DNA from: a virus
Lineage: Duplodnaviria > Heunggongvirae > Uroviricota > Caudoviricetes
DNA length: 4,643 nucleotides
IMG/VR virus record: IMGVR_UViG_2740892230_000003
Coordinates: 1-4,643 of that record
Direction: 5' to 3' (one strand)
Positions 3,001 to 4,643 of the stretch are shown here, one piece after another. The position numbers were made by a program. Position 1 is the first letter of the stretch. Each line of letters opens with the position of its first letter.

Positions 3001-4643
3001 CAGCTCTTCCGCTTCTTCTGCTGGAAGCACAACGTTGCTACCCGGTCCGTATGTTTCGCGCCAATGCTGGATTGTCAGCAGTCGATCTTTGGTAAAAGTG
3101 GTCATAGCTATTTCACCTTAATCTCAACATTTCGCAGCTTTAGCTCTACTGGCAGGTCTGACTTTCCTGTTAATGCTAATGCGAGATTTTCTGGAGTAGT
3201 GAGAACAGTTATTGTTTTCCCCCTCGCCAGACGAATAATCATGTGTATCTCGCTATCGTCACATGCTCCTGGTCGAACAATTGAGATTTGTCCGTTCATC
3301 TCACNNNNNNNNNNATTACCGGAGAGTTGCCAGCCTCATACGCCACACGCATCCAGTGCATAAGCGTTTCAGTGCTCACACATCCGCAATCAACGTCTAT
3401 TTTTTCTTTTTGTTCTGACAACCATTCCTGGAATGACAGCTTGGCAGTCTGGCTTGCTGGCTCAATTCGTGGCAGGCCGATATATAGCGGTACATTTCCC
3501 GGATCCATCGAATTGTCGGGACAAATAAACGTGTTACAACCATATTTAACGAGCTCAATTCCCGCGGTGTCGATAGTGGCGAATGGTTCAGCGGTCAATG
3601 CAGTCAACGCAATTTCATAAGCACGGCGCTCAATATTGTCCCGCACCCCCAGACTGCTGATATGTTCTTTAATTTCTTTAATTAGCTCTTTGTCGGTAAT
3701 AGTGGTCATAGCTATTTCACCTTAATCTCAACATTTCGCAGCTTTAGCTCTACTGGCAGGTCTGACTTTCCTGTTAATGCTAATGCGAGATTTTCTGGAG
3801 TAATGAGAGCAGTTATTGTTTTCCCCATCGCCAGACGAATAATCATTCGTATTTCGCGATCGTCACATGCTCCTGGTCGAACAATTGATATTTGTCCGTT
3901 CATCTCACTCTCCTTTGATGCGAATGCCAGCGGTACTCATTCTCCTGATTTCCCAGAGCACACGAGGAATACCACCGTTTCCGACCGGATCGCGTTTACT
4001 CCGCAGGGCGACGCTTGATTCCGCCCAGCTTTTTCTTGGAGGAAGCTCTTTCACACGAACAAAACCAGCTGCGCGAAGAGATGCTCCTGATTCATCTGCC
4101 TGGGTGTACGTAATACAACGTTGATAACCCATAGCTTTTGCTGCCCGCCAGACAGCACCATAAAGCGCGCTGTTAGCGTTGCGTTCTCCTGTGGTACATG
4201 TGCGATTTACTTCAAGCGTTAATCCATCGTCCAAATGTCGTGCAACAGGTCGACCAGCTGTCGCCACACCTATCAATTCTCCGGCATTATTTCTCAGACC
4301 AATGCTGAATTTATGCCCCACTGGTGGTTTATTGTGTCGGTGGTGCTGTGCGATAAATTCCTGCGCCGCTTTCAGCGTTATAGGTGAAATGACCATCACT
4401 CAGACTCCTCCTTGATGCCAGCGGCGCTTGCTGATTCTTCATATGCGCGTTTAGCAGCGTTAAGGATTGCTGCCAGTGGCGTATAGCCGCCATCCATTCG
4501 GATTGTGTTGTGGATGCCAGCCATTGTGTCGCGCAATTTGCTGTGGCTAGCAGACAGTTCTGCTATGCGCTTACTTCCATCCGCGATTACTCCCTCGTAA
4601 TACTCGCGTTGCTCGTTGAGTTTTGATTTTGCTTCCTCAAGCT

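What the first reader, a model, noticed from the sequence alone, without database searches (positions are those of the whole stretch)
3097..3908. Duplicated 63-aa leader gene fused to two different downstream partner genes
Two copies of a 63-aa gene (3108-3299 and 3712-3903) sit in ~205-bp repeat blocks. The 3' ~100 bp of each block is 100% identical, including the stop codon, the embedded SD and the first codons (ATG ACC AC) of the next gene. Immediately after that, the downstream genes diverge completely (MTTFTKDRLL... versus MTTITDKELIK...). All 8 nucleotide differences cluster in the 5' half of the small gene, and 6 of them are nonsynonymous, giving 5 changes within residues 14-35. This looks like a conserved adaptor gene plus a swappable cargo, comparable to how anti-defence or accessory genes travel next to conserved small marker genes in phages. 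It could also be a small two-gene functional pair (toxin/antitoxin-like or regulator/effector), but nothing in the sequence decides between these. Part of the pattern could come from a scaffold that has interleaved two prophages.
Basis: partly seen in the sequence, partly recalled or inferred. Interest (0 to 1): 0.6.

Follow-up and report, generated by a model that had tools for sequence, protein, structure and literature searches.

The report
Scaffold artefact stacking paralogous prophage genes
The apparent side-by-side duplication of a small phage gene with two different neighbours is most likely produced by a draft-genome scaffolder that chained look-alike contigs from different prophages; what remains is an ordinary, already described gene pair of lambda-like prophages.

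Summary
The repeat is in the record as described: 3091-3304 vs 3695-3908, 214 nt with 9 mismatches, and two intact 63-aa ORFs. But the window is an entire 4.6-kb draft mini-scaffold (CCPR01000238.1) made of four short contigs joined by three 10-N runs. Every large repeat abuts an N run, and copy 1's block ends at the last base before one. On finished references the contigs overlap one another on a single locus rather than lying end to end. In 92 other loci the small gene occurs once (within the ~4-20 kb of flank held where the contig allows), and in 173 of 174 phage records once. No finished E. coli genome (0 of 5426) has this tandem layout, while about 10% of carrier genomes hold 2-4 copies; in the four checked no second copy lay within 6-20 kb. 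Both "partners" are N-terminal fragments, cut by the gaps, of one modular family that usually ends in DUF551. The small gene is HK620 hkaF (phrog_1222), a conserved protein of unknown function in the exo-xis/ea region. It forms a ~240-nt conserved island with sharp mosaic junctions on both sides, a known pattern of lambdoid mosaicism. Verdict: a scaffolding artefact over known biology; low interest.

The parts
1..153 (.). Contig A: 153-nt fragment of an Ea22-like gene, from a different copy than contig B's left end
   Evidence: Bounded by the N run 154-163. 100% identical to Stx1 phage L003 3151-3303. Positions 43-153 are a 96% paralog of 164-274.
154..163 (.). 10-N scaffold gap
164..2736 (.). 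Contig B. Read on the minus strand: 5'-truncated DUF551 gene (1889-2736), antirepressor Ant (904-1533), DksA/TraR zinc finger (635-856), DUF4752 (354-638), start of an Ea22-like gene (239-367)
   Evidence: Pfam hits. 97.8% identical to the Stx1 phage and 99.9% identical to O104:H4 chromosomes up to window 2686.
1889..2736 (-). B-type DUF551-family gene lacking its first ~11 codons. The reading frame opens with FIKNPLENGLTRGEQMELA..., a class that elsewhere begins MTTITKERIEL and is directly preceded by its own copy of the small gene
   Evidence: DUF551 E = 1.3e-21; N-terminal class table. A second draft assembly also ends a contig 19 nt from the same spot.
2737..2746 (.). 10-N scaffold gap
2747..3304 (.). 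Contig C (558 nt): small-gene copy 1 plus the N-terminal 119 codons of a C-type DUF551-family gene
   Evidence: 98.2% over its full length to a single-copy locus in strain 2013C-3264. Positions 224-558 are 99.4% identical to phage P13374 and to O104:H4.
2747..3105 (-). C-type partner fragment (MTTFTKDRLL...), cut by the gap after ...FREISETS
   Evidence: phrog_660, phrog_60 and phrog_3323 hits. Full-length relatives are 185-200 aa, and most end in DUF551.
3091..3304 (.). Repeat block, copy 1; it ends at the contig end
3108..3299 (-). Small gene copy 1 (63 aa), carrying the P13374 / O104:H4 allele
   Evidence: phrog_1222 E = 7.9e-41 over 1-63 of 63. The identical protein occurs in L004.
3305..3314 (.). 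10-N scaffold gap separating the two copies
3315..4643 (.). Contig D (1329 nt): Ea22-like 3' fragment, XF1762/Mom-like gene, small-gene copy 2, and the N-terminal 131 codons of a D-type DUF551-family gene
   Evidence: 99.6% over its full length to one single-copy locus in strain 95NR1.
3315..3709 (-). D-type partner fragment (MTTITDKELIK...), cut by the gap at the recurring linker ...AGNSPV | IPDGW
   Evidence: phrog_60, phrog_5117, phrog_660 and phrog_3323 hits. The full-length relative in L001 is 203 aa and ends in a DUF551 domain.
3695..3908 (.). Repeat block, copy 2
3712..3903 (-). Small gene copy 2 (63 aa), the commonest allele (40 of the 85 loci then held)
   Evidence: phrog_1222 E = 6.5e-41; allele counts.
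3905..4399 (-). XF1762 family / Mom-like gene upstream of copy 2. It ends in ...AGIRIKGE*, the conserved upstream junction that carries the small gene's Shine-Dalgarno sequence
   Evidence: NF045478 E = 8.7e-62; phrog_1384; junction analysis.

Best explanation
The tandem layout is an assembly artefact. The window is a complete 4.6-kb draft mini-scaffold in which four short contigs were chained with 10-N placeholders. These contigs are break products of a short-read assembly in repeat-rich prophage DNA. Contigs B, C and D each carry part of the same kind of locus, taken from different lambdoid prophages of one genome (or from different strains in the sample). That locus is the early-left exo-xis/ea accessory operon, arranged as: a variable upstream gene ending ...GIRIKGE*, then the 63-aa hkaF-like gene, then a modular DUF551-family gene. 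In real genomes the small gene is single-copy per prophage. Its last codons hold a Shine-Dalgarno-like AAGGTGA, and the next gene starts 2 nt after its stop, so translational coupling is inferred from geometry. The gene plus ~30 nt upstream and ~15-20 nt downstream forms a ~240-nt island that is nearly identical among phages whose flanking genes are unrelated. Homologous recombination between co-resident or infecting lambdoid phages at such boundary sequences shuffles the neighbours. This explains the jump from 100% identity to no similarity just inside the next gene. The same near-identical islands and recurring linker modules break the assembly graph and mislead the scaffolder. Shown: the contig structure, overlapping placement on references, single copy elsewhere, family identities, and the conservation island. 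Inferred: different prophages as the source, coupling, and the recombination mechanism. The biochemical function of the 63-aa protein stays unknown. It is a small sheet-plus-helix protein, and in virulent Dhillonviruses it sits between DNA polymerase and a VRR-NUC nuclease, so a DNA-metabolism or host-takeover accessory role is only a guess.
For: (1) N runs lie at 154-163, 2737-2746 and 3305-3314, and all three large direct repeats abut them. Copy 1's block ends at 3304. (2) The window equals the whole record CCPR01000238.1 of GCA_000752855.1, 4643 bp. (3) On single continuous reference loci the contigs overlap. On O104:H4 (L090), B maps to 3810-5120, C to 4789-4875 plus 5087-5421, and D to 5208-5443. 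P13374 gives the same picture, and A and B overlap on the Stx1 phage. (4) Taken literally, all three junctions create partial tandem duplications of coding sequence and truncate all three DUF551 genes. A real tandem would need at least ~220 nt and ~470 nt hidden in the '10-nt' gaps. (5) 0 of 5426 finished E. coli genomes, and no phage, hold 80% or more of window 2747-4400 in one place. (6) 92 of 92 other loci have exactly one copy in the DNA held (up to 4-20 kb each side where the contig allows); the only two-copy locus is the window record itself. 173 of 174 phage records hold one place. (7) 716 genomes hold 800 places, up to 4 per genome. In four multi-copy genomes no second copy lies within 6-20 kb of the first. 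(8) Contig B's truncated gene belongs to a class that elsewhere has its own small gene directly upstream, which implies a third locus. (9) Contig C's last 5 nt are the canonical ...G-TGA-G junction of an upstream '...IKGE*' gene, not the end of a DUF551 gene. (10) Each contig matches a different finished single-copy locus: D at 99.6% to 95NR1, and C at 98.2-99.4% to 2013C-3264 and P13374. (11) Another draft assembly breaks a contig 19 nt from the same spot. (12) HK620 annotates the pair as hkaF-hkaE. Mosaic ea22/DUF551 genes are described in PMC10834534, and the boundary-sequence recombination model in PMC3233612, citing Susskind & Botstein 1978 and Clark et al. 2001. (13) The conservation island was measured on 50 unique segments.
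Against: No reads, mate-pair links or long-read assembly of this strain could be examined, so a real tandem with larger hidden gaps is not strictly excluded. The scaffolder did link these contigs, presumably on read-pair evidence. One phage record of 174 has two places for the protein, and I could not identify it. Tandem or split DUF551 genes do occur in this region, for example in 95NR1 and O104:H4 as annotated. The reading of a 10-N run as a minimum or negative-gap placeholder rests on my recollection of assembler conventions and was not tested.
Confidence: 0.85

Rival explanations
1. The tandem array is real. One prophage carries two (or three) consecutive [small gene - DUF551-family gene] cassettes, made by unequal crossing-over at the conserved junctions. 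The 10-N runs hide the missing 3' halves of the DUF551 genes.
For: The scaffolder joined the contigs in this order. The conserved island could support unequal recombination. Adjacent or split DUF551 ORFs are annotated in some finished genomes. One unidentified phage record has two places.
Against: No such arrangement appears in 5426 finished E. coli genomes, 92 other loci or 173 of 174 phage records. All three junctions, including the unrelated A/B junction, show the same overlapping-paralog pattern. In 92 loci the upstream neighbour of the small gene is never a DUF551 gene, and contig C ends in the canonical '...E-stop' junction. The gaps would have to hide at least 220 nt and 470 nt.
Confidence: 0.08
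2. The two alleles come from different cells. The sequenced sample was a mixed or contaminated culture, or carried a polymorphic prophage, and the assembler kept both haplotypes, which the scaffolder then laid in series.
For: Paralogous contigs at 90-96% identity overlap on one reference locus, which is also what haplotype 'bubbles' look like. Both alleles are common in E. coli.
Against: About 10% of carrier genomes really hold 2-4 copies in one cell, so a mixture need not be invoked. The contigs differ in whole gene modules, not just SNPs. Nothing in the window speaks to contamination.
Confidence: 0.05
3. This is a dedicated adaptor/cargo or toxin-antitoxin-like two-gene system: the small protein is a conserved partner that escorts or regulates interchangeable effector genes, such as anti-defence genes.
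For: The small gene is tightly coupled to the next gene, which starts 2 nt after the stop with its SD inside the small gene. Downstream N-terminal modules vary across six or more classes. In Dhillonviruses the downstream gene is a VRR-NUC nuclease instead. More distant relatives carry the domain fused to C-terminal extensions.
Against: In lambdoid contexts the downstream gene is always one family (68 of 79 end in DUF551), so it is not unrelated cargo. The upstream neighbour is just as variable, which points to a mosaic island rather than a leader. There are no Pfam, NCBIfam or PADLOC hits to toxin, antitoxin or defence families. The fold has no informative match. The fusion extensions are only marginally similar to the downstream family (E = 0.007).
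Confidence: 0.07

Closest known systems
hkaF-hkaE gene pair of coliphage HK620 (P22-like ea region; Clark et al. 2001, as annotated in NC_002730.1)
   Same: hkaF is 63 aa and 95% identical to copy 2. It lies between an Ea22-like gene (hkaG) and a DUF551 gene (hkaE), with the same 2-nt spacing.
   Different: HK620 has one copy. The window shows two only because it is a scaffold of paralogous contigs. The upstream gene of copy 2 here is XF1762/Mom-like rather than Ea22-like.
[quoted passage not shown]
   Same: Same genomic region and same early-left operon. The proteins are modular with swapped C- and N-terminal blocks, and DUF551 behaves as a portable domain.
   Different: That work concerns Ea22 itself and does not describe the 63-aa gene. 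No function has been assigned to the gene pair seen here.
Conserved boundary (linker) sequences as recombination sites in lambdoid phage mosaicism (Susskind & Botstein 1978; Clark et al. 2001; summarised in PMC3233612)
   Same: A short conserved island is flanked on both sides by unrelated sequence, with transitions at gene boundaries.
   Different: Here the island is a whole small gene plus ~30 nt and ~15-20 nt of flank, not just an intergenic linker. Recombination at this site is inferred, not observed.
Paralog or repeat mis-scaffolding in short-read draft assemblies
   Same: Short contigs are separated by fixed 10-N runs. Neighbouring contigs are homologous to each other and overlap on finished references. 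The breaks fall at recurring modules.
   Different: The assembler and scaffolder used for GCA_000752855.1 are unknown to me, and no reads were inspected.
YfdS of cryptic prophage CPS-53 (DUF551 protein; PMC4776307)
   Same: It is a DUF551-containing prophage early-region protein. Some loci with the small gene are CPS-53-like, with yfdP/Q/R nearby.
   Different: YfdS phenotypes (oxidative-stress tolerance, a contribution to replication-initiation inhibition when overexpressed) have not been tested for the proteins here.

Membership tests
hkaF-like small phage protein (PHROG phrog_1222) | Full-length match to the family profile | tested here: met
   Both copies match over 1-63 of 63, E = 7.9e-41 and 6.5e-41. 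They are 95% identical to HK620 hkaF.
hkaF-like small phage protein (PHROG phrog_1222) | Conserved as a protein (constant length, purifying selection) | tested here: met
   87 homologs, mostly 63 aa, at 59-98% identity. Between distant pairs dS is saturated while dN is 0.15-0.34.
DUF551 (PF04448) domain proteins | C-terminal DUF551 domain above the Pfam gathering score | tested here: met
   Contig B gene 1889-2689: 77.6 bits against a cut-off of 22, E = 1.3e-21.
DUF551 (PF04448) domain proteins | The same domain in the two 'partner' genes next to the small-gene copies | tested here: inconclusive
   Both fragments are cut by N runs before the domain and have no Pfam hit. Their near-identical full-length relatives (L001, 203 aa; L002, 197 aa) are annotated as DUF551 and hit the window's DUF551 domain by BLASTP.
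Genuine tandem segmental duplication | Both copies and the sequence between them lie on one uninterrupted stretch | tested here: not met
   The N run 3305-3314 lies between them, and copy 1's block ends at the contig end.
Genuine tandem segmental duplication | The arrangement recurs in finished genomes or phages | tested here: not met
   0 of 5426 genomes cover 80% or more of the stretch. 92 of 92 other loci are single-copy. 173 of 174 phage records hold one place.
Lambdoid mosaic junction with conserved boundary sequence | A conserved segment flanked by unrelated sequence in different phages, with transitions at gene boundaries | tested here: met
   Column identity is 0.96 or higher across the gene, 0.87-0.99 for 30 nt upstream and 0.88 for 15 nt downstream, then about 0.5. 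Unrelated upstream genes share the tail GIRIKGE*. There are six or more downstream N-terminal classes.
Type II toxin-antitoxin pair | Recognisable toxin or antitoxin domain in either gene | tested here: not met
   No Pfam, NCBIfam or PADLOC hit of that kind. The fold searches were uninformative.
Type II toxin-antitoxin pair | Toxicity of one partner neutralised by the other | not testable with these tools
   Needs expression experiments.
Anti-defence / accessory 'cargo next to conserved marker' loci | Unrelated cargo families downstream of the same marker gene | tested here: not met
   Within lambdoid prophages the downstream gene is one modular family (68 of 79 with DUF551; the others share its N-terminal modules or are truncated). 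Only in virulent Dhillonviruses is the neighbour different, a VRR-NUC nuclease.
Anti-defence / accessory 'cargo next to conserved marker' loci | Cargo with a demonstrated or annotated anti-defence function | not testable with these tools
   No anti-defence profile library was available, and PADLOC covers defence systems only.

The most novel reading that the evidence does not exclude
The scaffold order is right and the gaps hide several hundred bases. One prophage would then carry a tandem array of two or three [hkaF-like gene - DUF551-family gene] cassettes with different N-terminal modules, generated by unequal recombination at the conserved ~240-nt island. That would be a small cassette array diversifying an early accessory protein inside a single phage.
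Probability: 0.07. Interest if true: 0.4.

Novelty: already known. Interest (0 to 1): 0.08.

Why it matters
It matters mainly as a caution. Mini-scaffolds from short-read assemblies of prophage-rich E. coli can stack paralogous contigs and mimic tandem duplications, gene fusions and 'swappable cargo'. Public gene calls on this record even run ORFs through the N runs. Biologically the locus illustrates known lambdoid mosaicism. It also gives a clean example of a whole small gene (hkaF-like, phrog_1222) acting as a conserved island between variable neighbours on both sides. The function of this widespread gene (716 of 5426 finished E. coli genomes) and of its DUF551-family partner is still unknown. 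That is a modest open question, not a surprise.

Full report
OBSERVATION. Positions 3091-3304 and 3695-3908 are 214 nt long and differ at 9 positions. Each block contains an intact 63-aa ORF on the minus strand, at 3108-3299 and 3712-3903. Eight differences lie inside the ORF, all in codons 5-34. They give five amino-acid changes (S16R, H19R, R26M, V32A, T34I) and two synonymous codons.

An exact 102-nt stretch (3097-3198 = 3701-3802) spans the 3' part of the ORF, its TAG stop, an AAGGTGA Shine-Dalgarno-like motif and the first three codons of the next gene, which starts 2 nt after the stop. A few bases further on similarity ends, and the two downstream fragments are not significantly alike (E = 0.40).

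WHAT WAS MISSED. The window holds three runs of exactly 10 N, at 154-163, 2737-2746 and 3305-3314. It is therefore a scaffold of four contigs: A 1-153, B 164-2736, C 2747-3304 and D 3315-4643. An exact-protein look-up shows that the window is the entire public record CCPR01000238.1 (4643 bp) of draft assembly GCA_000752855.1. It is a mini-scaffold of short contigs.

All three large direct repeats touch a gap:
- 43-153 / 164-274
- 2352-2438 / 2747-2833
- 3091-3304 / 3695-3908

Copy 1's block ends at the last base of contig C. The two copies are on different contigs, and both 'partner genes' are cut by gaps after 119 and 131 codons.

THE CONTIGS OVERLAP ON FINISHED REFERENCES. Phage P13374 and O104:H4 chromosomes carry one continuous locus: Ea22-like gene, then small gene, then one DUF551 gene, then antB. 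On the O104:H4 locus, B maps to 3810-5120, C to 4789-4875 and 5087-5421, and D (its repeat part) to 5208-5443. P13374 gives the same picture. A and B likewise overlap on the Stx1 phage, at 3151-3303 and 3193-4813.

So at each of the three junctions the neighbouring contigs are paralogs of one another (90-96% identical) that belong on top of each other, not end to end. Taken literally, the scaffold would contain three partial tandem duplications of coding sequence and three truncated DUF551 genes. A true tandem would need at least ~220 nt (the DUF551 end of the D-type gene) hidden in the C/D gap. It would need at least ~470 nt hidden in the B/C gap.

Each contig has its own best match in a different finished, single-copy locus. 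D is 99.6% identical to strain 95NR1. C is 98.2% identical to strain 2013C-3264 and 99.4% to P13374. B is 99.9% identical to O104:H4, but only up to 2686. Another draft assembly ends a contig 19 nt from the same place as contig B, so this is a recurrent short-read break point.

Contig D breaks at the recurring linker ...AGNSPV | IPDGW. Contig C breaks inside a module (FRENK...STNNFR...) that is also present in B.

COPY NUMBER ELSEWHERE.
- The small protein occurs in 176 phage records with 177 places, and in 174 records with 175 places at E <= 1e-12. I could not identify the single two-place record.
- No finished E. coli genome (0 of 5426), and no phage, holds 80% or more of window 2747-4400 in one place.
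- 716 finished genomes carry the gene at 800 places, up to four per genome.
- In four multi-copy genomes no second copy lies within 6-20 kb of the first.

Two or more copies in different prophages is therefore common, and a tandem has not been seen.

Two further details fit the artefact. Contig B's truncated gene opens with FIKNPLENGLTRGEQMELA. That is the class MTTITKERIELFIKNPLENGLTRGEQMELA, which elsewhere is itself directly preceded by a small-gene copy. The scaffold therefore stacks parts of three such loci. Second, the last 5 nt of contig C (G-TGA-G before the ATG) are the canonical junction of an upstream gene ending ...IKGE*. In 92 loci that neighbour is never a DUF551 gene.

WHAT THE GENES ARE. 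The 63-aa protein has no Pfam or NCBIfam family. It matches phrog_1222 (unknown function) end to end and is 95% identical to hkaF of coliphage HK620. There the order is hkaG (Ea22-like), hkaF, hkaE (DUF551), eaG.

It is a real protein. There are 87 homologs, mostly exactly 63 aa, in Enterobacterales prophages and phages. Between distant homologs synonymous sites are saturated while dN is 0.15-0.34. Copy 1 is the P13374/O104:H4 allele, and copy 2 is the commonest allele. The copy 1 vs copy 2 dN/dS of 0.73 rests on 8 differences and says nothing.

The AlphaFold model (pLDDT 83; four strands and one helix) has no informative structural neighbour.

The downstream genes start 1-3 nt after the stop in the 83 loci where one was found, 2 nt in most. 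They open with M-(T/N/A)-(T/S/N)-(I/L/F/N)-(T/N) and fall into six or more N-terminal classes. They form one modular family. Of 79 complete genes, 68 end in a DUF551 domain. The rest share the same N-terminal modules with other C-termini or are truncated. Both window fragments hit the same PHROGs, phrog_3323, phrog_660 and phrog_60.

The upstream gene varies just as much (Ea22-like, XF1762/Mom-like, hypotheticals). Yet nearly all of these genes end in the same residues, (A)GIRIKGE*. Measured on 50 unique segments, column identity is 0.96 or higher through the gene. It stays high for ~30 nt upstream and ~15-20 nt downstream, then falls to ~0.5 on both sides.

No promoter-like or terminator-like site on the coding strand separates the genes. 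In virulent Dhillonviruses a 65%-identical homolog sits between DNA polymerase and a VRR-NUC nuclease.

MECHANISM. Best explanation, confidence 0.85. The genome (or sample) holds two to three lambdoid prophages, each with one [variable gene]-[hkaF-like]-[DUF551-family] unit in the pL-driven exo-xis/ea accessory operon. The short-read assembly broke at shared modules, and the scaffolder chained the paralogous contigs with 10-N placeholders.

The biological pattern behind the 'two partners' is mosaicism. The small gene with its two junctions is a conserved homology island at which recombination between lambdoid phages exchanges neighbours. This is the boundary-sequence model attributed to Susskind & Botstein and to Clark et al. 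for HK620 (PMC3233612). It is consistent with the mosaic ea22/DUF551 genes described for Stx phages (PMC10834534).

Translational coupling of the small gene to the DUF551-family gene is inferred from the 2-nt spacing and the embedded SD. The function of both proteins is unknown. DUF551 protein YfdS has reported stress and replication phenotypes (PMC4776307), but these were not tested for the proteins here.

RIVALS.
- A real tandem cassette array (0.08).
- Mixed strains or haplotypes (0.05).
- A dedicated adaptor/cargo or TA-like system (0.07).

The evidence for and against each is given in the structured fields. No TA, defence or anti-defence signature was found.

VERDICT. The sequence facts are right, but the headline feature is most likely a scaffolding artefact. 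What remains is a known gene pair and known lambdoid mosaicism. Interest is low. The decisive test is read-pair mapping or a long-read assembly of the same strain.

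Noticed in passing
window 3904-3935 (3' end of the XF1762 gene); loci L001-L095 upstream of the small gene: Upstream neighbours of the small gene belong to unrelated families (Ea22-like, XF1762/Mom-like, hypotheticals), yet nearly all end in the same residues, (A)GIRIKGE*. 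These last codons carry the small gene's Shine-Dalgarno sequence. The conserved nucleotide island reaches ~30 nt into whatever gene lies upstream.
   Followed up: partly
window 3905-4399 (minus strand): An XF1762 family protein (NF045478, E = 8.7e-62) that also matches the Mom-like DNA-modification families (phrog_1384; Pfam Mom, below cut-off) lies directly upstream of copy 2. It may be a DNA-modification or anti-restriction accessory gene.
   Followed up: no
window 2650-2686 and 2970-3006; 2352-2438 and 2747-2833: Short repeats inside the DUF551-family genes coincide with recurring peptide linkers (ELARIALASL; FRENK..STNNFR). The O104:H4 gene combines the C-type N-terminus with the B-type body, with the crossover in the 37-nt repeat. 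The DUF551-family genes are thus shuffled module by module.
   Followed up: partly
window 43-153 and 164-274: Contig A's last 111 nt and contig B's first 111 nt are 96% identical copies of the same Ea22-like gene segment. A is 100% identical to Stx1/Stx2 phages of O157:H7. This is a second, independent example of paralogous contigs laid in series.
   Followed up: yes
L092 (the window's own public record, CCPR01000238.1): Public gene calls on this record run ORFs straight through the N runs (137-aa and 158-aa products), creating chimeric proteins in protein databases.
   Followed up: no
L087 (phage rolling, Dhillonvirus) 2501-2692: A 65-67% identical homolog of the small protein sits in virulent siphophages between DNA polymerase and a VRR-NUC nuclease, in a replication module with a helicase and a C5 methylase. 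This is a different genomic context from the prophage one.
   Followed up: partly
proteins P0096, P0100, P0106, P0110, P0114, P0115: More distant relatives carry the small domain at the N-terminus of 132-212-aa proteins with no Pfam hit. The extensions are at best marginally similar to the DUF551-family modules (E = 0.007).
   Followed up: partly
L006 (CACSKA010000005.1, labelled Chryseobacterium sp. 18061, 420-kb contig) 5001-5189: A 78% identical homolog, followed by an enterobacterial-type modular downstream gene, lies in an assembly labelled Chryseobacterium. This suggests a mislabelled or contaminated assembly.
   Followed up: no
phage collection: One of 174-176 phage records has two strong places for the 63-aa protein. 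It was not among the roughly 100 distinct rows I could list, so it stays unidentified.
   Followed up: partly
L091 (ABBGBL010000040.1) 1-20: An unrelated draft assembly ends a 42.8-kb contig 19 nt upstream of the same internal Met of the B-type DUF551 gene. This position is a recurrent short-read assembly break.
   Followed up: no
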